Below the pieces are notes generated by a model. That model had not been told where the DNA came from, searched no databases, and was given only the letters and a program-made list of their open reading frames with translations. A DNA stretch of 64,000 bases from Cyanobacteriota bacterium (GTDB taxonomy: Bacteria; Cyanobacteriota; Cyanobacteriia; PCC-6307; Cyanobiaceae), in the NCBI GenBank assembly GCA_046052125.1, contig JBJOMY010000007.1, positions 11,114-75,113 on the forward strand. Reading direction: 5' to 3'. Below are positions 1 to 64,000 of this stretch, piece by piece (the stretch's first letter is position 1; each line of letters starts with the position of its first letter). The position numbers and the translations under genes were made by a program.

Positions 1-3000
1 CAACCCTGAGTCCTCCTCCATAGCCGAACTGACTGCCGTTTGATTCAAGTTCATAGCTCACCGTTAGATAGAGAGAAGCGTTCTTGGCAACTTGCAGGTC
101 AAATCCACCAGCCACGGCAAAGGCATTGGCTCCTCCATTTTCACCTTGGGTAGTGAAAGAGCCTGCGGCTGGTGCCTCAACGAAGCTTGAAGTGAGTGCC
201 TTGTTGCTACTGGTATTGGCTAGAGCGTCCACCTGATAGGCGACTGCGAGTCTTGGCGTGATGCTCTGCACTTTATTTTTACTCAAGGCAATCGGGCTAG
301 TTGTGAACTCCATCCCCAGAGTTCCCACCAGACTATTGGCTGTATTGCCGTTAACACGGAGGTTTAAGGCTCCACCACCAGATTCCGTAAATCCACTCTG
401 CTGGTAGCCACCCCAGGCTAGACCAGCAAAGGGCTTGAGCAGCATCGGCAATTTCGTTTTACCTGCTTTGATGGGGATGTCATAGGCGGCGTTGATGGCA
501 GCGGTGTAACCGTTGGCAGAGGTATTTCCATTAATTGTTGAACCATTACCGATATAGGCGACATTCCGGCTGCCACCCATATCAAAGTTGCTGTAGCCAA
601 GCAAAGCCTTGATGTTCCAGCGTTCAGCCGGTTTATAGACGGCATAGAGCGCACCCCCATTGACATCCGAGCTGACATTCGCCGAGGTCAGGCGCATGTC
701 AGAAAGATTGGATGTGCCATAGCCGTAGGCAGCACCAACACTCCACTGCTTGGAAGGCTTGTACTCGAGACCATAGAAGGATGAAAAGATGCCCGAGTTA
801 TAAGAGGACAGTCCATTCTGACCTCTGATGCTGCTTGTGGCATTATTAGCCTTAGCAAAGACGCAAACTGGGCGTTTCGGGGTTTTGCCTTTCTTAGTCT
901 CGGGGGCATTGATGATCCAGCCATTGCCTTGGCAGTTGCCAGCTTGTGAAAACAGGAGCTCTCGCTGACGTTTCAGAGTTGAAAGGCCAACAGCCTGGTA
1001 AGCGGAATACGGTTCCGGTGATAGTGAATCAATCGCCGCTGTGAGCTGACTGCCGGAAGTCAGGGCTAATAACTGGGAGGTGGCGGTCAGGAAATCACTC
1101 GTGATACTGGCTGCGGCTGCTTGCCCTGTCGTGAAGCCCGTCGTACCAATCGCCGTACCTGTGGCATTGAGACCAGTTGTAGTTCCCGATTGGTTGCCAG
1201 CCGCCGTAGCTAGGGATGAGAACACATTGTCAAAGGCACCAGCAGTGGCCAATTGGTTCCGCTGACCCTTACCTAAACTAGAAACAGCTGATGCGGTAGC
1301 CCCAGAGCCATTTTTGGGTTGCCACTGGACATCAAAGGTTGCGGCATTGCCGTCCACTTCTTGAACCAGGTTGGTACCAGAATTCAACAGCGCACTAGTT
1401 ACACCAGATTGATCCAAGGTGAGGCTGCTGCTGGTCGCAAAGTTGTTGCTAGCAGTAATGAGTTGATAATCGATGTTTGGCCAGGGACTACCACCGCCAT
1501 AGGGAATCAGCTTGGCGGTACCAGTGAAGTTGGTGACATTCCCGGTAACGCTGACTTTGTCGTTCTGGGGTCCTTGGATTTCGGCATCAAGGGTACCGCC
1601 ATTGAGGTTCAGACCAGCCACTCTGACCATGCCGATCGAATTGCCAGGGGCAAGTTTGGCACCAGAGACAAGGTTGGTTTGAGGCAGGCTGCCAGTACCG
1701 CCAATTGTTCCACCCGAATTGACCGTTAATCCAGAGGACGAAGCAATTGAGCCGTTGACAGAAAGAGTAGCACCGTCAGCAACGGTTGTTGAACCGGTGT
1801 AGGTGCTGGTGCCTAAAAGCGCGATCTTACCTCCCACGCCGCTGTTAGTGAAGTTGATATCTCCGCTGCCTCCAAAGACCCCCGATAGCGCAGCCTCGTT
1901 GCCATTTTGGTCAATGCTGTTCACCGACGCGCCTAATGATGTATACAAAGACCAATTGCTAGCGTAGGTGCCGGACGAATCGACAACGACGGTGCCTCCA
2001 GCGAGTGTCTGCCCCCAGGGACTAGAGATTGGTGTGGTCATCCCGGAATCGAGAACCCTTGATATCAGCAGCTGAACGTTTGTGGTTCCATAATTGATGG
2101 CGTATCGGTAACCCAACGGAAGTGTTGCATCAATGGTTGCAAATACACCGGAAATGGCCTGGCCAGCAATCAATGTGTATGGATTGGTGACGTCAAACCC
2201 TTCTCCCGAGAAGGCCAGATCAAGAGTTCCTCCTAAATTAATATTCCCTGTGGCGACTATACGATCTGCGGATGAAGAGTTTACCTCGAAGCTGCTTATC
2301 GCACCGCCATCCAACGTTAAGCTTCCTAGGACATTGATCGTACCGATGGAATTTCCTGGGGCAATTTGACCTCCTGCTTGAACTGTGGTGGATGGGAGGC
2401 TGCCGGTACCGCCAATTGTTCCACCCGAATTGACCGTTAACCCAGAGGACGAAGCAATTGAGCCGTTGACAGAAAGAGTAGCGCCGTCAGCAACGGTTGT
2501 TGAACCGGTGTAGGTGCTAATCGCAGTCAACACCGCCGAACCTGCATTTGAAAAAATTATATTTCCAGCCTGGCCAGAAACCAAGTCCGAAAATGCTCCA
2601 TTAAAAATGGAACTATTTCCACCCAGATTCATTCTGTTGGATGGCTCAGTCCCAAGTGACCAGTTCTGGCTGTACTGTCCAGAACTACTTACGAGAAGCG
2701 TGCCACCCGCGAAGGCTGTTGTATTTGAGCTGGCAATGTCGGTTGTTGTCCCAGTGCCCATTCCGCGAAAAGATACAACCAAGTCCCAGTTGTTTGGCGT
2801 CGAGCTGGCAGTTAAGCTCCACCCATATGACCCGAGTGAATATTCTGTATCCTCGTTCGTAATGTTGGGTGCTCCCACGCCTGTTAGAACATTGATGTAC
2901 CTATTGGCTTCCAGAACTGAGGTTGAATCTACCCCAAAAGCCATAGATCCTGACGACCAGGCCACTGCCAGCCTTCCGAAGTTCGTGGTTGACCGCACTA

Positions 3001-4054
3001 CGATGTTGTACGTACCTGGCAAGGCTCCGTAATATGTCAGCGGGCTATTTCCACCCTGTAAGTTGGCCAGAGTGCTGATATTCGCGTTTTCTGTTAGGCG
3101 AATGCCATAGGTGGATCCGCTGCCACCAGTTCCGCCAAGGATTGTTCCTAGATTTGTAATTGCAGTTGTCCCGCTGCTTAGTTTGACCCCATCCCCGCTC
3201 GATGCATATCCGTACATGTAGCCTGTCCCACCACCAGATGAGCCGCCCGTTATCGAGCCATTGAAGCCGTTGACAATTGAATTAGTACCCCCATTCAGAG
3301 AGATGCCTGCATCGCCATTCCCGCCTCGTGAGGAATACATCATGTAGGACATATAGCCCCCATACAAATCAGCCGAATAACCTGATTGTCCGTTGGGCAT
3401 GCCATTGCCGCCCATGCCACCACCGCCGCCGAAACCATTATTCCCTCCAGAGCCGCCTTGGCCTCCTGTTATCGATCCTGTGTTATTGATAACTATGGCA
3501 GAGCCAGATACGCCAGGCCCGCCATCGCCACCATTGCCACCTCCGCCTCCGTTCCCTCCATTCCCACCATTTCCGCCCGCGCCTTGGTACATATATCCGT
3601 ACCCGTAGTAGCAGCCGGGATCCAAAAAATCACAAGGGTCAGGCCAAGCGCCACTGCCGCCACTTCCGCCATCCCCACCCCTGCCACCAGTGCCGCCATA
3701 GCCTCCCATTCCTCCAATTATGGATCCAGAATTTGTGATGGTTATGTTTACTCCTGTCTGGCCAGCTCCTCCAGTGCTGCCATTCCCGCCAGTACCGCCA
3801 TAACTTCCTGTACCTCCGTCACCGCCTCTGCCACCATTGAGGGAGAAAATGCCATATGCACCATTAGCACCATTGCTACCCCTGACACCCGTTGCGCCGT
3901 TTTGTCCCGAGGCTCCAGACAATGCAGAAGTATTAATTATCTGTGCAGATGCGCTGGAATCTCCGATGATCTCCCCAGCTAGTAAAAAAAACAGCAGGAA
4001 TCCGAATCTGCCTAGAAAGAGGGGCCGCAGGGACGATTGATTGGGCGCGGTCAT
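1..4054 (-). CDS. Autotransporter outer-membrane beta-barrel protein with Gly-rich passenger (last few codons lie beyond the left edge)
   Basis: Manual translation from ATG at 4054 is open to position 1 (1351 codons). It has a signal-peptide-like N-terminus ([38 protein letters not shown]), GGxGGxGG tracts, two [19 protein letters not shown] passenger repeats followed by APGNSIG, and a barrel-like C-terminus (...[24 protein letters not shown]). Confidence 0.9.
1686..1807. repeat. 122-bp direct repeat copy A (autotransporter-associated beta-strand repeat)
   Basis: Matches 2397-2518 with 3 mismatches; offset 711 bp (237 codons). Confidence 0.92.
2397..2518. repeat. 122-bp direct repeat copy B
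   Basis: Matches 1686-1807 with 3 mismatches. Confidence 0.92.
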
Positions 4055-4073
4055 TGGGAGATAAATTTCTTTT

Positions 4074-4079
4074 ATTTTA
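4074..4079 (-). promoter_or_regulatory. Possible -10 element (TAAAAT) for the autotransporter
   Basis: TAAAAT on the minus strand about 20 nt upstream of ATG 4054 in an AT-rich stretch; no canonically spaced -35. Confidence 0.3.
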
Positions 4080-4199
4080 AAGGCTTTTTCTGTCGACAAA
4101 TCCGGAATAAATCTATAGGGACTTTTGACGTGGACCCCGGAGAACGATCCAGGGTGAATGAGAGTCCCCATCCGGCCAGACTGGGCCAGGTACTTCACC

Positions 4200-4478
4200 A
4201 TGAAACGCACCAGGCATACGGCGGAGCAGATCATCCGCAAGCTCAAAACTGCCGAGCAGCTGATCGCCCAGGGCAAGACCGTCGTCGACGTCTGCCGAGT
4301 GATCGAGGTGAAGCAGCCGACGTATCACCGTTGGCGGCAGCAATACGGCGGGATGCAAGCCGAGGAGGCCAAACGGCTGACTCAGCTGGAGAAGGAGAAC
4401 GCCCGGCTCAAAAGGCTTTTGGCGGAAGCCGAGTTGGAGAAGGCGATGCTCAAAGACCTTGCCGAGGGAAACTTCTGA
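4200..4478 (+). CDS. IS3 transposase OrfA (HTH DNA-binding)
   Basis: [16 protein letters not shown]...[22 protein letters not shown]...[14 protein letters not shown] is typical of IS3 OrfA. Confidence 0.9.
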
Positions 4479-58132: not shown

Positions 58133-58657
58133 CTATCGAGGGTTGCCAGGAAGCACCTGCTGCTGCTCCCGCAGCAAGCCCGAGTAGCCAAGCTTCCGGG
58201 CCAGGGCCTGGAGAGTGGCGGGGTCCTTGCCGGCCTGCTCCGGGACACAGGCGGCCCACCAGATCTGGTGATCCAGGCGGTTGGCGTCGTTGATCGACCC
58301 ACCAGGGTTGAGCTCTTTGATGAGGAGGCTGCTGCCCTTGCGCGTCAGCCGCATCGGCGCATCCGGGCTGCAACGCAGGGTGTCGATCGCCAGCTGCACC
58401 CCCGTCGGGGATTCCACCCACACCACGATCGTGCGGGCCGTTGGATCGCGCGGATCGGGCTTCACACCATGCACGCCGATGGCGAAGCCGCCTTCCATGG
58501 TGCTCCACTCGCGCAGCAGCACCAGATCAGCGGGCCGCTGCTCGTTGGACGCCCGATGCGGGTTGCTGGGGTCGGGGGCACCGAGGGAGGTTTGAGCAGC
58601 GGCGGGGAGCGTAAGCATGGCCACAGCCAGCAGCAGCTTCAGTGATCGAGCAGCCAT
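58133..58657 (-). CDS. Hypothetical exported protein
   Basis: Signal peptide (LLLAVAMLTLPAAAQ); WWAAC motif with two Cys. Confidence 0.65.
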   Translation of the reverse strand: MAARSLKLLLAVAMLTLPAAAQTSLGAPDPSNPHRASNEQRPADLVLLREWSTMEGGFAIGVHGVKPDPRDPTARTIVVWVESPTGVQLAIDTLRCSPDAPMRLTRKGSSLLIKELNPGGSINDANRLDHQIWWAACVPEQAGKDPATLQALARKLGYSGLLREQQQVLPGNPR

Positions 58658-58697
58658 AACGCTCAGCGGTGGCAGGGAGCTTGCCAGCATGGTGTCC

Positions 58698-59843
58698 ATG
58701 CCGTCCCCTGTCATCTACCTCGACCATCAAGCCACCAGTCCCTGCAGAGCGGAGGTTCTGGCGGCGATGGAACCGTGGTGGCGGGAGTCTGGGGCCAATC
58801 CCAGCAGCCGGCTCCACCGACCGGGGCTTCAGGCTGCCGCCGCGATCGAGCTAGCCCGCGAACAGATCGCCCAGGCCCTGGGGGGCTCCGGAGGCCGGTT
58901 GGTGTTCACCAGCGGTGCTACGGAAGCCAACAATCTCGCTCTCAAAGGCCTGGCGGAGGCTGAACTGGAATCAGGCGGTGGGCGACGCCATCTGATCACC
59001 GTCTGCACCGAGCATCGATCCGTGCTCGATCCCCTGCGCCACCTCAGCCGCCATGGCTTCGAGCTGACGGAACTTCCGGTGCACGCCGATGGGCTGGTGG
59101 ATCTGGAGGAGCTGGAGGCCGCTCTGCGAGCCGACACGCTGCTGGTGAGCGTGATGGCTGCCAACAACGAGATCGGGGTCATCCAGCCGATCGCGGCCAT
59201 GGCCAACCTCTGCAGGCGCCGTGCTGTGGCGCTGCACTGCGATGCCGCCCAGGCTCTGGGCCACATCCCTCTGGATGCGGCTGAGCTCGGCGTGCAGCTG
59301 CTCAGCCTCAGCGCCCACAAGCTCGGGGGCCCGATGGGCATCGGCGGTATTTGGATCGCGGATGGCATCCGCATCGCACCGCAACTGCATGGCGGCAGCC
59401 ATGAGGGGGGATCGCGGGCCGGCACCCCAGCACTCCCTCTGATTGTTGGCTTCCAGAAAGCCCTGGAGCTAGCCCTTCAGGAGCAACCCGAGCGGTTACA
59501 CCAGCTCACAGTCCTGCGTGATGCGTTGTGGCATGGCATCCGCGACCTGGGCGGCATCGTTTGCAATGGGGCCGGCACACCACGGCTGGCCCACAACCTC
59601 AACATCTGGGTGGACGGCGTGGATGGCGTCGAACTGCACAGGCAACTGCGCCGGCATCTCGCCGTGAGCAGTGGATCCGCGTGCAGCAACGGTGAACCCT
59701 CCCACGTGCTGCAGGCGCTGGGGCTGAGCCGTCAGCAGGCGGCTGCCGCTGTTCGCTTCAGCCTCGGCCCCGAGAGCACGGCTGCGGATGTTGAGCGCGC
59801 CATCGACGTGTTCTGCACAACCGTGCAGGCCCTACGGCGTTAA
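58698..59843 (+). CDS. Cysteine desulfurase (NifS/IscS family)
   Basis: IYLDHQATSP, TSGATEANN, HCDAAQ, SAHKLGGP, SSGSAC. Confidence 0.93.
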   Translation: MPSPVIYLDHQATSPCRAEVLAAMEPWWRESGANPSSRLHRPGLQAAAAIELAREQIAQALGGSGGRLVFTSGATEANNLALKGLAEAELESGGGRRHLITVCTEHRSVLDPLRHLSRHGFELTELPVHADGLVDLEELEAALRADTLLVSVMAANNEIGVIQPIAAMANLCRRRAVALHCDAAQALGHIPLDAAELGVQLLSLSAHKLGGPMGIGGIWIADGIRIAPQLHGGSHEGGSRAGTPALPLIVGFQKALELALQEQPERLHQLTVLRDALWHGIRDLGGIVCNGAGTPRLAHNLNIWVDGVDGVELHRQLRRHLAVSSGSACSNGEPSHVLQALGLSRQQAAAAVRFSLGPESTAADVERAIDVFCTTVQALRR

Positions 59844-60661
59844 GCCGTTTTGCGCGCTGACGCACGGGGCTTGCGCTCCCGGGGCTTGGACGATTTAGAG
59901 GCCTTGGTGGATGGCGTCTCCGTTGCCTGAACGAGACTGACGGGAGGCACGGGCGACTGCACCTGAGCGATCCGCGACAGCACCCGCTGCTGGGCTGTTT
60001 CAGAGAACAGGAATGTCCCGACGTGACCAAGAGCAAAGCGCTTGGAAAGGAACACTTTGCCGCCGAGATCACGCCAACGATTGCAGAACATCCAGTCTTC
60101 ACTCATGTAAACGTCATGCCCTGGCACCAGGCCGCAATCGAAGTAGGCGTAGAGGAAGGGATTCAATGAAGGATCCAGGCCGCAGTCATCGGTGTATTTA
60201 AGATGGGGATTGGCCTCCGCCAGCCGCACAAACACCTCCCTCCGAATCAGCAGAAACCCTGTACCCAATCGCAACACCTCCACCTTGCCATCATCTTGGA
60301 AACCACCAGGGCAGGGATTGATGACGTAATCAACAGGCAGGCTTTTCTTGGGGTAACCACCACCAATAACATCCACATTCTCCTGCAACAGAGTCAGCAC
60401 ATCAGACGGCTCAAAGAGAATGTCCGAGTCGATGAACATCAGATGCGTGGCCAGCGGGTTCGCCATCGCCCGGGCCACCAGAGCATTGCGACCGCGGGGA
60501 ATCAGGCTCTCATTCACCAAGGTGTCAAGAGTCCAGTCGACCCCCCAGTCGCGGGCTTGAACCGTGAACCGAACAAAACTGGTGAACGTGGCTTCAGAAA
60601 TCTGCCCCCCGTAACAAGGAATCAGAAAATGAACGTGGGGAACAGCAGCGCCATAAACCAT
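59840..60661 (-). CDS. GT-A-fold glycosyltransferase-like protein
   Basis: LIPCYGG, ESLIPRGRN, HLMFIDSDI (DXD), YPKK, GTGFLLIRR, SEDWMFC, GHVG. Confidence 0.75.
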   Translation of the reverse strand: MVYGAAVPHVHFLIPCYGGQISEATFTSFVRFTVQARDWGVDWTLDTLVNESLIPRGRNALVARAMANPLATHLMFIDSDILFEPSDVLTLLQENVDVIGGGYPKKSLPVDYVINPCPGGFQDDGKVEVLRLGTGFLLIRREVFVRLAEANPHLKYTDDCGLDPSLNPFLYAYFDCGLVPGHDVYMSEDWMFCNRWRDLGGKVFLSKRFALGHVGTFLFSETAQQRVLSRIAQVQSPVPPVSLVQATETPSTKASKSSKPRERKPRASARKTA

Positions 60662-60765
60662 TTTGAGTTACAGATGCGCTCAGTGCGGTCCCGGGAATCT
60701 AGGCGAAAAACCCCAAAAAACTGATAGGGTCGCCGACCGAAACAGCCCTTCACGCAGCAGTCAGC

Positions 60766-61554
60766 ATGACCTTTGCGCGCCGCTTTCGTCGCCGCCTGTC
60801 GGCTCCTCTGCTGCTCCTGATCACGTCGGCCTCGTCAGTGCCGTTGGCCATGCCGGCTCACGCTCTCGACGATGCAGCCCTGGCACGGAAACTCGCCTCG
60901 ATTCCCGTGCTCCTGCCCACGGACACGGCAGGCAAACCGGTGCTGATCGATCGTCCCGTGGGGGGCAAGAGCACGCCGGTTCTGTTCGGCGCTTTCTCAC
61001 CCGAAGCCGCTGAGGCGCTCCAACAACAGATCATTCAGCCGCAGCTCAAGGCGAAGGCCGCCAGCATCCAATTCAGGGCCACCAACCTGGTGGATTTCGA
61101 AGCCGTGCTGCTGGATTCACGTAAACAGCAACCTGCTGTTGTGCGCGCTTACATCCCCGATCCCCTGCAGGAGTCAGCTGTGGTGCCGATGCTGATCGAA
61201 CAGGGGGCCAAACCCGAGGAGGCGCGCCAACTTGCACGCAGCCAACCGGTGATCTTCTGCCCGGACCCGTTGGTTCAGGTCAACGTCAAACGCGACAAAC
61301 TCAACACCACCACAGTGCCCTGCGGCCTGGATTTCCGCGAGATGGCGCTGTTTGTGCTCGGACCTCGCCTCAAAGATCGCCGCCCCGGCCTGGTGGGCTT
61401 ACCGCTGGAGCGGATGGTGACGCTGATGCGCACGCTAAAGGGAAGCGAAGGCGACCATCTCACCATCACCCCATCGCCATCGATGCAGGCGCTGCTGAAC
61501 CGGCTGGCCAGCAGCAACACCACTCCCGCATCGCCAGCAACCAAGAAGCCCTAG
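60766..61554 (+). CDS. Divergent Tic22-family periplasmic chaperone
   Basis: Signal peptide, then PAHALDDAALARKLASIPVLLPTD, GAFSPEAAEAL, YIPDPLQ and ITPSPS, colinear with remembered cyanobacterial Tic22 motifs. Confidence 0.7.
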   Translation: MTFARRFRRRLSAPLLLLITSASSVPLAMPAHALDDAALARKLASIPVLLPTDTAGKPVLIDRPVGGKSTPVLFGAFSPEAAEALQQQIIQPQLKAKAASIQFRATNLVDFEAVLLDSRKQQPAVVRAYIPDPLQESAVVPMLIEQGAKPEEARQLARSQPVIFCPDPLVQVNVKRDKLNTTTVPCGLDFREMALFVLGPRLKDRRPGLVGLPLERMVTLMRTLKGSEGDHLTITPSPSMQALLNRLASSNTTPASPATKKP

Positions 61555-61558
61555 GGCA

Positions 61559-61885
61559 TCAGGCAGCGATTGGCTCCTCAACCTGGGTCAGGGGCTCAAC
61601 GCCCTGGACGTCAAGCTCCTGCTTGATCAGCGTCACATAAGTTTGTTGAGCCGCTTGAAGGTTGCGCAAACGAAACTGCAGCTCGTTCTGCTCCTGACTG
61701 CAGCGCAGGAGGTCGTTGATCATCGCCGTCACGGTTTCGGGAAGGCTGTCGATGGCGTAGGTCACACCGTCGATGTTGAACAACGGACGCTCTGCCGCAC
61801 TGTCCAGCACCTCAAGAGTTCTCGGATCGGGGCTCTCACCGGTCACATCGGTCTCGAGCTCGGCCTCGAAATGGTCGTCGGACAT
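61559..61885 (-). CDS. DUF6447-like small acidic coiled-coil protein
   Basis: FNIDGVTYAIDSLPE...LQFRLRNLQAAQQTYVTLIKQEL. Confidence 0.6.
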   Translation of the reverse strand: MSDDHFEAELETDVTGESPDPRTLEVLDSAAERPLFNIDGVTYAIDSLPETVTAMINDLLRCSQEQNELQFRLRNLQAAQQTYVTLIKQELDVQGVEPLTQVEEPIAA

Positions 61886-62041
61886 ACCAGGGACCTCCCC
61901 AACAGTGCGGTGAACTTAAGCCCATTTCCCAGCGGCGCCGCACAAGCCGCAGCGGGGGGGGCATCAGAAAGGCGAACAAATTCCGAAGAGCCCTTTCTTT
62001 TTCATACGGCAATGCAAAAATGGCGCACCTTTCCGTCGTAA

Positions 62042-64000
62042 GTGCGCCAAAACCGCGCTGCTCTGGGTCTCCTGCCTGCCTTCCTGCTCCTGAGCGGGAC
62101 GGCAACCTCCGTGCTGGCACAGACCCAGAACATCGGCACCAGCAGCGGCACTTACACCTCTCCGAGCTCTCAGCCCTTCGTCTACGGCCAGGGCAACAAC
62201 GGCAGCACACCCAGCTACAACCCCTGGGGTAATGGCCGCACCGGTGGCACCGGCGGCAGCGGCCCGACGATCACCTACAGCCTGATCAACGGCTCCTCCA
62301 TCGGGACAACAGCCGGAGCCAGCTCCGCCGGCGGACGCGGCGGCAACGGCGGCACCAGTGCCGGTGATGGTGGTGATGGCGGATCCGGTGGGTCCCCGGG
62401 GAACGTCACGGTCACCATTACCTCCGGCACGAACATCAGCGCCAGCTCGCTGGTGAATGGCGGCTATACGAGCGTTCTTGGAGCCATTGCCAGCGTCAGC
62501 GCTGGTAATGGCGGCGATGGCGCCAATGCCGGACTGGTGAGTGGTGGTTCCGGCGGTGTCGGAGGTAGCTCCGCCGGCCAGACGGCCCAGCTGAACACCC
62601 AGGGCGGCAGCTCCATCAGCGCCACCAGCACCTCGGGCTCCTACGGCGCCATCGGCCTGCTGTCGCAAGCCACCGGGGGGATCGGTGGCGATGGCGGCAG
62701 CGGCACCTTTGGTGGCGGTGGCAGCGGTGGCAGCGGCGGTTTCTCCGGCACCGCCTCGGTCAACAATGCCGGCAACATCACCGTTACCTCCAGTGGCGGC
62801 GCTGGTGGCGCCGGCATCCTGGTTCAGTCGGTGGGCGGCCAGGGCGGCTCCTCTGGCAGCGGCGGCATCATCTCCTTCGGCAACCTCGGGGGCACCGGCG
62901 GTAATGCCGGCACGGTGAACGTGGTGAACTCCGGAAACATCACCGTGAGCGGTAACGGGGTGTTTGGCATCAACGCCCAAAGCGTGGGCGGCGGCGGCGG
63001 TGCTGTGGCTCCCAGCATTTCCCTAGCCAACCTTGGTTCCTCCGAGGGCGGCGGCGGCGGTGCCGGCGGCAGTGCCACCGTAACCATGAGCGGCGGCAGC
63101 ATCCGCACCAATGGCTCCAATGCCATAGGCATCATTGTTCAGTCGATTGGCGGCGGCGGCGGCGCCATCGGCAGCAGTGCCGCTGCGATCAATCTGGGCG
63201 GCTCATCCTCGGGTGGCTTCGGCGGCAATGCCGGTAGCGCCACGCTGAACTTCAGCGGCGGAAGCGTCACCACTGGTAGCGCCACCGTTGGCACGCTCTC
63301 CAGCGGCATCCTGGTGCAGAGCATCGGCGGCGGCGGCGGCAGTGCCGGCACGAGCTATGGCCTGATCTCTTTTGGCGCATCCGGTGGCAACGGAGGCAAC
63401 GGAGGTACTGCCACTGCTTATCTCAGCAGCGGCAGTGTCACCACCTACCAGGATTTCGCCCCCGGTATCACCGTGCAGAGCATCGGTGGCGGTGGTGGCA
63501 ATGGCGGCAATGCTTCATCAGCCGGCGTGGGCGTATCGGTGGCCGTGGGCGGCACCGGTGCCGCTGGCGGCGTCGGCGGCACGGCTCAGGTCTTTGCTCC
63601 ATCGCTGAACAGTGTTCCGATCACCATCAACACCTCCGGCAACAGTTCGCCAGGCCTGTTGGTGCAAAGCATTGGTGGCGGTGGCGGCAATGGCGGCAGC
63701 TCCACCAGCGCCTCCGTTGGCATTGCCAGTGCCTCAATCGCCGTGGGCGGCAGCGGCGGCAGCGGTGCAACCGCCGGCAAAGTCACAGTTGGAACGTCGA
63801 GCGTCCCTCTCTATATCAATGTCACCACCCAAGGAGCTAGCTCGCCCGGCATCAGCCTGATGTCGGTTGGCGGGGGCGGCGGCAGCGGCGGTGCCAGCGG
63901 GTCGCTGGCCGGCGGCGCCGCGGGCAGCTTCAGCCTCGGCATCGGTGGCACCGGCGGTACCGGCGCCAACTCTGGCGTCGTCTACGCCAACATCGCCGGC
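62042..64000 (+). CDS. Large secreted Gly/Ser-rich repeat protein, probable autotransporter passenger (runs off the right edge)
   Basis: GTG start, signal peptide MRQNRAALGLLPAFLLLSGTATSVLAQ, open for 653 codons. Six QS[IV]GG repeats (five reading QS[IV]GGGGG) plus MSVGGGGG recur every ~52-65 aa. Confidence 0.85.
   Translation, partial: MRQNRAALGLLPAFLLLSGTATSVLAQTQNIGTSSGTYTSPSSQPFVYGQGNNGSTPSYNPWGNGRTGGTGGSGPTITYSLINGSSIGTTAGASSAGGRGGNGGTSAGDGGDGGSGGSPGNVTVTITSGTNISASSLVNGGYTSVLGAIASVSAGNGGDGANAGLVSGGSGGVGGSSAGQTAQLNTQGGSSISATSTSGSYGAIGLLSQATGGIGGDGGSGTFGGGGSGGSGGFSGTASVNNAGNITVTSSGGAGGAGILVQSVGGQGGSSGSGGIISFGNLGGTGGNAGTVNVVNSGNITVSGNGVFGINAQSVGGGGGAVAPSISLANLGSSEGGGGGAGGSATVTMSGGSIRTNGSNAIGIIVQSIGGGGGAIGSSAAAINLGGSSSGGFGGNAGSATLNFSGGSVTTGSATVGTLSSGILVQSIGGGGGSAGTSYGLISFGASGGNGGNGGTATAYLSSGSVTTYQDFAPGITVQSIGGGGGNGGNASSAGVGVSVAVGGTGAAGGVGGTAQVFAPSLNSVPITINTSGNSSPGLLVQSIGGGGGNGGSSTSASVGIASASIAVGGSGGSGATAGKVTVGTSSVPLYINVTTQGASSPGISLMSVGGGGGSGGASGSLAGGAAGSFSLGIGGTGGTGANSGVVYANIAG

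What the first reader, a model, noticed from the sequence alone, without database searches (positions are those of the whole stretch)
59840..64000. Candidate dedicated export/modification module for a giant Gly-rich surface protein: GT-A enzyme + Tic22 paralogue + DUF6447-like + repeat protein
Seen: immediately after the core cysteine desulfurase, four tightly packed accessory genes in two divergent pairs (GT<- ->Tic22-like; DUF6447-like<- ->repeat protein). Known: Tic22 is a periplasmic chaperone in Omp85-dependent outer-membrane biogenesis. Adhesins often travel with dedicated glycosyltransferases (AIDA-I/TibA with AAH/TibC heptosyltransferases; HMW1 with HMW1C), but those belong to other families than this CYGG/DXD GT-A type. 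Inference: a picocyanobacterial surface-adhesin system with its own chaperone and a new type of protein glycosylation of the Ser/Thr-rich passenger. I do not recognise this gene combination from any described system.
Basis: partly seen in the sequence, partly recalled or inferred. Interest (0 to 1): 0.75.

Follow-up and report, generated by a model that had tools for sequence, protein, structure and literature searches.

The report
Giant autotransporter with dedicated Tic22-like chaperone
A freshwater picocyanobacterium encodes a surface protein of more than 8,000 residues, secreted by the autotransporter route, next to its own diverged copy of the periplasmic chaperone Tic22, a small DUF6447-like protein and a glycosyltransferase; the same helpers sit beside other giant secreted proteins in related genomes, which points to an undescribed helper set for exporting giant proteins.

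Summary
The four genes exist exactly as described. The repeat protein is the N-terminus of a giant type Va autotransporter. Its 5,735-aa continuation, which ends in a PF03797 barrel, opens contig C2. In complete marine Synechococcus genomes the orthologue is one ORF of 7,400-10,800 aa.

The Tic22-like gene is a true but diverged Tic22 paralogue. Its family profile matches Anabaena Tic22 (4EV1) over the full length, and it carries a subfamily FCPxP...PC cysteine pair. It is not the genome's core Tic22, which lies on contig C3.

This genome holds three such paralogues and three DUF6447-like genes. All of them lie beside giant type V secretion genes: this autotransporter, and a two-partner secretion locus with TpsA proteins of 4,673 and 9,625 aa. 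Across relatives, 16 of 20 paralogue loci examined abut such giants. No Skp or SurA was detected in this genome.

The glycosyltransferase (GT-A fold, invariant DxD, closest in fold to collagen hydroxylysine glycosyltransferases) travels only with the autotransporter-type loci. It also occurs alone in one genome and in phages, so its target is less certain.

Verdict: a conserved, undescribed accessory module of cyanobacterial type V secretion. The chaperone and glycosylation mechanisms are inferred, not shown.

The parts
59840..60661 (-). Cytoplasmic GT-A glycosyltransferase, 273 aa. It has no signal peptide, a CYGG motif, a DSD (DxD) motif at residues 78-80, invariant His213, and a basic low-complexity C-terminal tail. 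The gene has low G+C.
   Evidence: ORF. phrog_1574 at E 1e-32. 1,216 homologues. Invariant columns. AlphaFold model with pLDDT 80.7. Top Foldseek hits are LH3 GT domain, STIV A197, COLGALT1 and Mnn9, and phage GT-A proteins. G+C 0.54.
60662..60765 (.). 104-bp divergent spacer between the GT and the Tic22-like gene. It presumably holds both promoters.
   Evidence: Sequence. The sigma-70 consensus scan found nothing, so promoters are inferred from the gene arrangement alone.
60766..61554 (+). Tic22-family paralogue, 262 aa. It has a Sec signal peptide (...AMPAHA|LDD) and the subfamily-specific FCPDP...VPC cysteine pair (Cys165, Cys186). Predicted to be a periplasmic holdase.
   Evidence: PF04278 at 23.9 bits, cut-off 23. 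Family profile against Anabaena Tic22 4EV1 over the full length, E 4.6e-8. A separate core Tic22 lies on C3. Tree: paralogue clade against core clade, 100/100 support. The Cys pair is present in 20 of the 21 best-scoring 50%-identity clusters. Metatranscriptome contigs cover the gene.
61559..61885 (-). DUF6447-like small protein, 108 aa, with no signal peptide. It has an acidic disordered N-terminus, a beta-hairpin (residues 35-44) and one long helix (residues 50-93).
   Evidence: PF20045 at 13.1 bits, below the cut-off. Two paralogues in the C1 TPS locus. Relatives are annotated DUF6447. Model. No structural match in the PDB.
61886..62041 (.). 156-bp divergent spacer between the small gene and the giant gene.
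   Evidence: Sequence. No consensus promoter or terminator was found.
62042..62119 (+). Sec signal peptide of the giant protein (VRQNRAALGLLPAFLLLSGTATSVLA|QTQ).
   Evidence: Read from the translation. It is conserved in orthologues L003 and L015. The cleavage site is inferred by eye.
62120..64000 (+). Start of the passenger of a giant type Va autotransporter, built of Gly/Ser-rich repeats of about 53-75 aa carrying QS[IV]GGGGG. The ORF runs to the end of contig C7 (2,431 aa). It most probably continues in the 5,735-aa ORF that opens contig C2 and ends in an autotransporter beta-domain.
   Evidence: Synteny across the join: IscS | p255 | RsmH. Single-ORF orthologues of 7,451-10,770 aa with the barrel in complete marine genomes.

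Best explanation
The window ends in the head of a type Va secretion locus of a freshwater picocyanobacterium. The nearest named relative is a Vulcanococcus MAG.

**The substrate.** It is a Gly/Ser-rich repeat protein of more than 8,166 aa with a Sec signal peptide and a C-terminal autotransporter barrel.

**Two accessory genes belong to it.**
1. A periplasmic Tic22-family paralogue. It most likely holds the enormous unfolded passenger (or a TpsA) in a secretion-competent state. It would then hand it to the Omp85-type machinery: BamA for the autotransporter barrel, and the POTRA domains of TpsB in the sister two-partner loci. In this organism no Skp or SurA was detected.
2. A small, probably cytoplasmic DUF6447-like coiled-coil protein of unknown biochemical role. 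Its core homologue always follows an MsbA-like ABC exporter gene, so an envelope-export role is suspected.

**The third gene.** It is a cytoplasmic GT-A glycosyltransferase found only with the autotransporter-type loci. It probably modifies the passenger before export. It may act together with the PhyH-family dioxygenase that belongs to the cluster in most relatives and lies on another contig here.

**What is shown:** gene identities, the barrel, the paralogy, and the conserved linkage across loci and genera.

**What is inferred:** chaperoning, the POTRA hand-off, cytoplasmic glycosylation, and the join of contigs C7 and C2.
For: **Barrel.** The ORF that opens C2 carries the same repeats and ends in PF03797 (E 3e-36...GGGFRWRF). 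Orthologues in complete genomes are single ORFs whose N-terminus abuts the Tic22 paralogue. One example is G182 = Synechococcus MIT S9451: 10,689 aa at 1046299-1078366, with the Tic22 paralogue starting at 1078385.

**Tic22 identity.**

**Core against paralogue.** Among 301 genomes of the family, all other matches at E <= 1e-8 score 36-52 bits and cover only the N-terminal half, as core Tic22 copies do. Twelve genomes have full-length paralogues above 100 bits. The two groups form separate clades.

**Linkage inside one genome.** All three Tic22 paralogues and all three DUF6447-like genes sit at type V loci. The second locus, C1:556.7-604.6 kb, holds TpsB (POTRA_2, E 2e-21) and two TpsA proteins (TPS domain, E 2e-25).

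**Linkage across genomes.** 16 of 20 paralogue loci examined abut a giant type V gene.

**GT.** In seven of eight genomes of the sample that carry it, it lies in a locus with the small gene and a giant autotransporter. It also lies so in G011 and in metagenome loci. This holds in two genera, with different flanks and gene order.

**No general periplasmic chaperones.** No Skp (PF03938) and no SurA_N (PF09312) were found.

**Literature.** Tic22 binds Toc75 POTRA domains, and Anabaena Tic22 cross-links to Omp85 (PMC4811774).

**Expression.** Freshwater metatranscriptome assemblies hold contigs over all four genes.
Against: - No experiment links any of these proteins.
- Four paralogue loci (G093, G168, G213, G006) are not next to type V genes.
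- The GT occurs without a Tic22 paralogue, an autotransporter or a TPS in G023 (Synechococcus LTW-R), on an integrase-bearing island. It also occurs in phages.
- The two-partner loci have no GT.
- The window's small protein fails the DUF6447 cut-off.
- The C7-to-C2 join rests on synteny, not on reads.
- Genomes within one genus are not independent observations. The GT linkage rests on about two lineages.
- The Tic22 paralogue fold was not modelled, because the prediction quota went to the GT and the small protein.
Confidence: 0.65

Rival explanations
1. Only the Tic22 paralogue and the DUF6447-like gene serve the giant protein. The glycosyltransferase is a mobile, phage-derived envelope-sugar enzyme that acts on LPS, exopolysaccharide or another protein, and merely sits in the same variable island.
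For: The gene has low G+C. There are 1,216 homologues, against a few dozen for the Tic22 paralogue. The GT stands alone beside an integrase in G023. Homologues occur in cyanophages, rhizobiophages and jumbo-phage-like contigs. In marine loci it borders hisS and a UDP-glucose dehydrogenase/epimerase block. The two-partner loci lack it.
Against: Every autotransporter-type Tic22 paralogue found has the GT in the same genome. It lies in the same cluster except in G307, where the GT sits beside the small gene and other giant autotransporters elsewhere on the chromosome. This holds in two genera with different flanking genes and gene order. In the cyanophage it sits inside the tail-fibre module, next to a repeat surface protein, which fits a protein substrate. 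The nearest folds are protein (hydroxylysine) glycosyltransferases.
Confidence: 0.3
2. There is no functional link. All four genes are hitch-hikers in a hypervariable genomic island, kept together by shared descent and horizontal transfer of the whole block.
For: Giant ORFs are classic island content in Synechococcus (PMC2441476). Transposases interrupt the cluster in L007 and L021. The distribution is patchy.
Against: The Tic22-like + DUF6447-like pair recurs with two mechanistically different type V systems (Va and Vb). It does so as diverged paralogues (21-33% identity) inside one genome, and in rearranged orders across genera. Hitch-hiking does not predict this.
Confidence: 0.1
3. The gene after TpsA is an immunity or regulatory protein, in the manner of cdiI after cdiA, rather than a chaperone.
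For: One paralogue lies immediately downstream of each TpsA examined (G000 C1, G233, G109, L008). That is where contact-dependent-inhibition immunity genes lie.
Against: It has a Sec signal peptide and a conserved full-length Tic22 homology. Immunity proteins are cytoplasmic and hypervariable. The TpsA C-termini are conserved, not polymorphic. In autotransporter loci the gene is divergent and upstream of the giant gene.
Confidence: 0.05

Closest known systems
Classical (type Va) autotransporters with a dedicated cytoplasmic glycosyltransferase: AIDA-I/Aah and TibA/TibC of E. coli
   Same: A Sec signal, a repetitive passenger and a C-terminal PF03797 barrel, with a neighbouring cytoplasmic glycosyltransferase gene.
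   Different: The passenger is more than ten times longer. The enzyme is a GT-A/DxD protein with phage relatives, not a BAHT heptosyltransferase. The locus also encodes a periplasmic Tic22 paralogue and a DUF6447-like protein. The host is a cyanobacterium. Glycosylation is not shown.
HMW1A/HMW1B/HMW1C two-partner secretion of Haemophilus influenzae
   Same: A large type V exoprotein with locus-encoded accessory factors. The sister locus on C1 is a true TpsA/TpsB system.
   Different: HMW1C is a GT41 (GT-B) N-glycosyltransferase. The cyanobacterial two-partner loci here have no GT at all. They carry Tic22 paralogues and DUF6447-like genes instead.
Core cyanobacterial and plastid Tic22 (Anabaena alr0114, PDB 4EV1; plant Tic22-III/IV)
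   Same: Same family by full-length profile match. Located in the periplasm or intermembrane space. Members of the family bind Omp85/Toc75 POTRA domains (PMC4811774).
   Different: The window's gene is a separate, long-branch paralogue clade with an FCPxP...PC cysteine pair. It is accessory rather than core, and it is genomically tied to type V secretion genes.
General or dedicated periplasmic helpers of type V secretion in proteobacteria (SurA, Skp, DegP; Par27 for FHA; SadB for SadA), from established knowledge and not tested here
   Same: The proposed role: keeping a long unfolded passenger competent between Sec and the outer-membrane transporter.
   Different: The protein families are unrelated. 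Those helpers, except SadB, are not encoded in the substrate's locus. This genome has no detectable Skp or SurA.
Collagen hydroxylysine glycosylation (LH3 / COLGALT1, GT25-like; mimivirus analogues)
   Same: Best structural matches of the GT. A 2OG-dioxygenase gene (PhyH type, or P4H type in G023) accompanies the GT. The substrate candidate is a Gly-rich fibrous protein.
   Different: Sequence identity is only 12-17% and TM-score about 0.5. Lys makes up only 0.5-0.9% of the passenger. No hydroxylation or glycan is shown. This is an analogy, not membership.
Giant ORFs of marine Synechococcus, including SwmB
   Same: Cell-surface giants of about 10,000 aa in variable islands. The marine orthologues found here belong to that class.
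   Different: The papers available here describe no secretion route or accessory genes for them. Whether SwmB itself is of this type could not be tested.

Membership tests
Tic22 family (PF04278) | Profile-HMM match above the curated threshold | tested here: met
   23.9 bits against a cut-off of 23 for the window's protein. The two paralogues on C1 do not reach it on their own.
Tic22 family (PF04278) | Full-length homology to a structurally defined Tic22 | tested here: met
   A 19-sequence family profile matches Anabaena Tic22 4EV1 at residues 3-228, E 4.6e-8, and algal Tic22 (8XKS, 8XQW) at E about 3e-3.
Tic22 family (PF04278) | Export to the periplasm (signal peptide) | tested here: met
   N-terminal hydrophobic signal sequences are present in the aligned paralogues and in the 50%-identity cluster representatives, apart from N-terminally truncated fragments. 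Read by eye, without a predictor.
Tic22 family (PF04278) | Tic22 fold and binding to Omp85 POTRA domains | not tested
An interaction needs an experiment or a complex prediction.
Type Va autotransporter | C-terminal autotransporter beta-domain (PF03797) on the same polypeptide as the passenger | tested here: inconclusive
   The barrel is present on the 5'-open C2 ORF, which has the same repeats. The join to the window's ORF is inferred from synteny. It is met outright in single-ORF orthologues of complete genomes.
Type Va autotransporter | N-terminal Sec signal peptide | tested here: met
   VRQNRAALGLLPAFLLLSGTATSVLA|QTQ, conserved in orthologues.
Two-partner secretion (type Vb), sister locus on C1 | TpsA with an N-terminal TPS domain, plus TpsB with POTRA and a ShlB barrel | tested here: met
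   PF05860 at E 2e-25, PF08479 at E 2e-21. PF03865 on the orthologous TpsB in L008 and L021.
DUF6447 (PF20045) | Profile-HMM match above the curated threshold | tested here: not met
   13.1 bits against 27 for the window's copy, and 18.8 and 20.4 bits for the C1 copies. Marine relatives carry PF20045 or the name 'DUF6447 family protein'. The canonical family member is a different, core gene (about 140 bits). The window's gene is therefore a diverged paralogue, not a canonical member.
GT-A glycosyltransferases | Rossmann-like GT-A fold with a DxD metal/nucleotide-sugar motif | tested here: met
   Model with pLDDT 80.7. Foldseek probability 1.0 to LH3 GT, A197, COLGALT1, Mnn9 and SpsA. D78 and D80 are invariant in 30 homologues.
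GT2 (PF00535), the name NCBI gives its relatives | Match to the Glycos_transf_2 model | tested here: not met
   No PF00535 hit at E <= 0.1. Only Anp1 at 13.9 bits, below its cut-off.
Autotransporter heptosyltransferases (Aah/TibC) and HMW1C-type GT41 | Sequence or fold membership in those families | tested here: not met
   No such family appears in the Pfam or NCBIfam scans. None appears among the 50 best fold matches listed, which are almost all GT-A enzymes.

The most novel reading that the evidence does not exclude
Picocyanobacteria have duplicated Tic22 into a dedicated escort for polypeptide translocation through Omp85-family transporters (TpsB and autotransporter/BamA). This would be a living bacterial counterpart of the Tic22-Toc75 POTRA hand-off used for chloroplast protein import. 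In addition, the autotransporter-type loci would carry a collagen-like modification pair: a PhyH-type hydroxylase plus an LH3/GT25-like GT-A that decorates a Gly-rich giant fibre, an enzyme shared with cyanophage tail-fibre modules.
Probability: 0.25. Interest if true: 0.85.

Novelty: new variant of a known kind. Interest (0 to 1): 0.66.

Why it matters
Type V secretion is usually described as needing only general periplasmic chaperones. How proteins of 8,000-20,000 residues cross the periplasm unfolded is unclear, especially in cyanobacteria that lack Skp and SurA.

A locus-encoded Tic22 paralogue, found with both autotransporters and two-partner systems, gives a concrete and testable answer. 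It also connects to an old question in plastid evolution: why Tic22 works with the Omp85-type channel Toc75.

The result gives the 'giant ORFs' of marine and freshwater picocyanobacteria a secretion route and a set of candidate biogenesis genes. These ORFs have been implicated in grazing defence and motility. It also gives the first genomic context for the DUF6447 family.

Tried and rejected
- **Family scans of the repeat protein's N-terminus.** Pfam and NCBIfam found nothing. The barrel was found only by following the ORF into other contigs.
- **GT against PDB sequences.** The single sequence found nothing. The profile gave only a marginal hit to STIV A197 (E 0.0036). Fold search was needed.
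- **Fold search of the small protein.** No match with E < 1.
- **Literature.** No paper holds 'DUF6447'. None links Tic22 to two-partner or autotransporter secretion in cyanobacteria. The SwmB paper (PMC1797281) is not held, so SwmB's architecture could not be compared.
- **The search for related loci.** The full paralogue alignment failed because no conserved stretch was long enough. A narrower alignment returned only 5 loci.
- **Promoter and terminator consensus scans.** Nothing found.
- **'This is the core Tic22'.** Rejected.
- **Nif11/PhyH/650-aa trio as an obligatory part of the module.** Rejected for this genome. It lies on contig C5 beside pepN.
- **CDI-type immunity.** Rejected, see the rival explanations.
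- **Bridging C7 to C2 with reads.** Not attempted, because the runs are held only as short-read contigs that break in the repeats (one search shows many repeat-induced joints).

Full report
**Observation.** They follow an IscS/NifS-type cysteine desulfurase at 58617-59843. G+C falls to about 0.54 over the first gene, against 0.65 for the genome. The window is G000:C7:11114-75113 of a 2.64-Mb, 10-contig genome. Its nearest named relative is a Vulcanococcus MAG, and the DNA is found in freshwater metagenomes.

**The repeat protein is a giant autotransporter.**
- The ORF runs 2,431 aa to the end of contig C7 without a stop.
- Contig C2 opens with a 5'-open ORF of 5,735 aa made of the same QS[IV]GGGGG repeats. 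It ends ...GGGFRWRF and has an autotransporter beta-domain (PF03797, E 3e-36).
- It is the only such open-ended partner among the contig ends.
- Synteny supports the join. In relatives the order is IscS, a 255-aa membrane protein, then RsmH. Here IscS precedes the locus on C7, and the 255-aa homologue and RsmH follow the giant ORF on C2.
- In complete marine Synechococcus genomes the orthologue is one ORF with the barrel at its C-terminus and a signal peptide at the N-terminus. The ORFs have 9,151 aa (G233), 9,433 (G242), 10,689 (G182 = MIT S9451), 7,858 and 8,643 (G250), and 7,451 and 10,770 (G307).
- The passenger is 22-30% Gly and 22-26% Ser+Thr, has almost no charged residues, and repeats every 53-75 aa.

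**The Tic22-like gene is a real, extra Tic22.**
- It just passes PF04278.
- A 19-member family profile aligns to Anabaena Tic22 (4EV1) over residues 3-228 at E 4.6e-8, and to algal Tic22.
- The genome has a distinct core Tic22 on C3 (37 bits).
- In 301 genomes of the family, all other matches at E <= 1e-8 score 36-52 bits and cover only the N-terminal half, as core Tic22 copies do. Twelve genomes have one to three full-length copies above 100 bits.
- A maximum-likelihood tree puts eight core sequences and twenty paralogues on opposite sides of a long branch with 100/100 support.
- The paralogues share a signal peptide and an FCPxP...PC cysteine pair that is absent from 4EV1 in the alignment. 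The pair is present in 20 of the 21 best-scoring 50%-identity clusters, out of 1.84 billion representatives searched.
- Only 18 clusters reach E 1e-30, so this is a small family.

**Linkage to type V secretion.** The own genome holds three paralogues of the Tic22-like gene and three of the small gene, and all sit at type V loci. The second locus, C1:556.7-604.6 kb, contains these genes:

| Gene | Coordinates | Note |
|---|---|---|
| Tic22-like | 556699-557457(+) | |
| small | 557974-558258(-) | |
| TpsB | 558275-560089(-) | POTRA_2, E 2e-21 |
| small | 560120-560398(-) | |
| TpsA | 560661-574679(-) | 4,673 aa; TPS domain, E 2e-25 |
| Tic22-like | 574901-575713(-) | |
| TpsA | 575722-604596(-) | 9,625 aa |

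Linkage elsewhere:
- G011 repeats the window's arrangement.
- Freshwater contigs L003-L007 have GT, Tic22-like, small, Nif11-like, PhyH, a 647-aa protein and the giant.
- Marine Synechococcus (UW140, MIT S9451, and L018-L020) have the same seven genes in another order, beside hisS and psbEFLJ.
- L008 and L021 repeat the two-partner layout.
- G233 has TpsB, a double small gene, a 20,437-aa TpsA and then the Tic22-like gene.
- In G160 and G109 the paralogue directly follows the C-terminus of a repeat giant.
- In G002, G026 and G329 the small gene precedes TpsB or TpsA.
- Four paralogue loci (G093, G168, G213, G006) are orphans, beside carB/katG, minD or chlM.
- Altogether 16 of 20 loci examined abut a type V giant.

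**The small protein.**
- It has no signal peptide, an acidic disordered N-terminus, a beta-hairpin and one 44-residue helix. It has no structural neighbour in the PDB.
- It fails the PF20045 cut-off, but marine relatives are annotated DUF6447.
- The canonical DUF6447 gene (about 140 bits) is a different, core gene of about 80 aa. Among 301 genomes of the phylum it was found only in this family.
- In all 12 loci examined, that core gene lies directly downstream of an MsbA-like ABC exporter.
- So both accessory proteins repeat one pattern: a core copy plus paralogues linked to type V loci.

**The glycosyltransferase.**
- It has 1,216 homologues, with invariant D78, D80 and H213 and a near-invariant CYGG motif.
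- The model (pLDDT 80.7) is a GT-A fold. Its best matches are the GT domain of human lysyl hydroxylase LH3 (E 6e-9), STIV A197, COLGALT1, Mnn9 and mimivirus R699, and phage GT-A proteins.
- It co-locates with the small gene and a giant autotransporter in 7 of 8 carrier genomes of the family sample, and in G011 and the metagenome loci.
- It is absent from two-partner loci.
- It stands alone in G023 (LTW-R), beside a P4H-type 2OG oxygenase and an integrase, in a genome with no PF03797 or TPS match.
- It occurs in T4-like cyanophages inside the tail-fibre module, next to a repeat surface protein, another GT and a sugar epimerase.
- In this genome the PhyH/Nif11/647-aa trio lies on contig C5.
- Passenger glycosylation, perhaps coupled to hydroxylation, is therefore a reasonable inference. 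It is the weakest link.

**Context for a chaperone role.** The genome has no detectable Skp or SurA N-domain. Tic22 proteins bind POTRA domains of Toc75, and Anabaena Tic22 cross-links to Omp85 (PMC4811774). TpsB and BamA are Omp85-family proteins with POTRA domains. Freshwater metatranscriptome assemblies contain contigs over all four genes. The Tic22-like gene reaches word depths of about 10-12 in two of the four runs, above its neighbours there. These are assemblies of unknown purity and show presence only.

**Comparison and novelty.**
- The locus works like a classical autotransporter with helpers, and its sister locus is a classical two-partner system.
- What is new is the helper set: a locus-encoded Tic22 paralogue and a DUF6447 paralogue shared by type Va and Vb loci, and a GT-A of a kind not known from autotransporter glycosylation.
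- No paper in the library describes this. Giant ORFs of Synechococcus are known only as a class.
- I rate it a new variant of a known kind. Confidence is about 0.65 for functional linkage of the module, lower for each specific mechanism.

Noticed in passing
window 2-4276 (-): A second, ordinary-sized autotransporter of about 1,425-1,443 aa, with its PF03797 barrel at window 59-862. It has no Tic22-like or DUF6447-like neighbour. G000 has further PF03797 matches at C1:610299-611081 and C3:12383-13174.
   Followed up: partly
G000:C1:556699-604596 (outside the window): A complete two-partner secretion locus with TpsA proteins of 4,673 and 9,625 aa, one TpsB, two Tic22 paralogues and two DUF6447-like genes.
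   Followed up: yes
G000:C1:471249-473272; loci L039-L050: The canonical (core) DUF6447 gene lies directly downstream of an MsbA-like ABC exporter in all 12 picocyanobacterial genomes examined. Among 301 genomes of the phylum, the family was found only in this bacterial family.
   Followed up: partly
G000:C5:3992-7118; L003:8967-12137; L014:4780-7935: A conserved trio: a Nif11-domain protein (TIGR03798, just over its cut-off), a PhyH-family dioxygenase, and a protein of about 650 aa that matches no family. It usually sits inside the autotransporter cluster, but here it lies apart, beside pepN. It could be a RiPP-like unit or a modification unit.
   Followed up: partly
L062 (Synechococcus phage ACG-2014f_Syn7803C8, NC_047713.1:213736-214494): The GT's cyanophage homologue (37% identity, annotated as hypothetical) sits in the tail-fibre/baseplate module, next to a 26-residue-repeat surface protein, a second GT and a nucleotide-sugar epimerase.
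   Followed up: partly
G233:C1:~843100-922900: An open reading frame of 20,437 aa with an N-terminal TPS domain, one of the longest bacterial ORFs. It is flanked by TpsB and a double DUF6447-like gene upstream, and by a Tic22 paralogue downstream.
   Followed up: partly
L009 (G023:C1:1264000-1283900): In Synechococcus LTW-R the GT stands on an island with a phage-type integrase, a P4H-type 2OG-Fe(II) oxygenase and an OprB porin, and has no type V partner.
   Followed up: partly
window 62700-63950: Metatranscriptome and metagenome contigs laid on the giant gene show many 'skips' of about 120-740 bp between repeat units. These are assembly collapse in the repeats, or natural variation in repeat number.
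   Followed up: no
G000:C5:2-2953 (-): Another large ORF (more than 984 aa, with no signal peptide seen) runs off the start of contig C5, next to the Nif11/PhyH/650-aa trio. Its nature was not examined.
   Followed up: no
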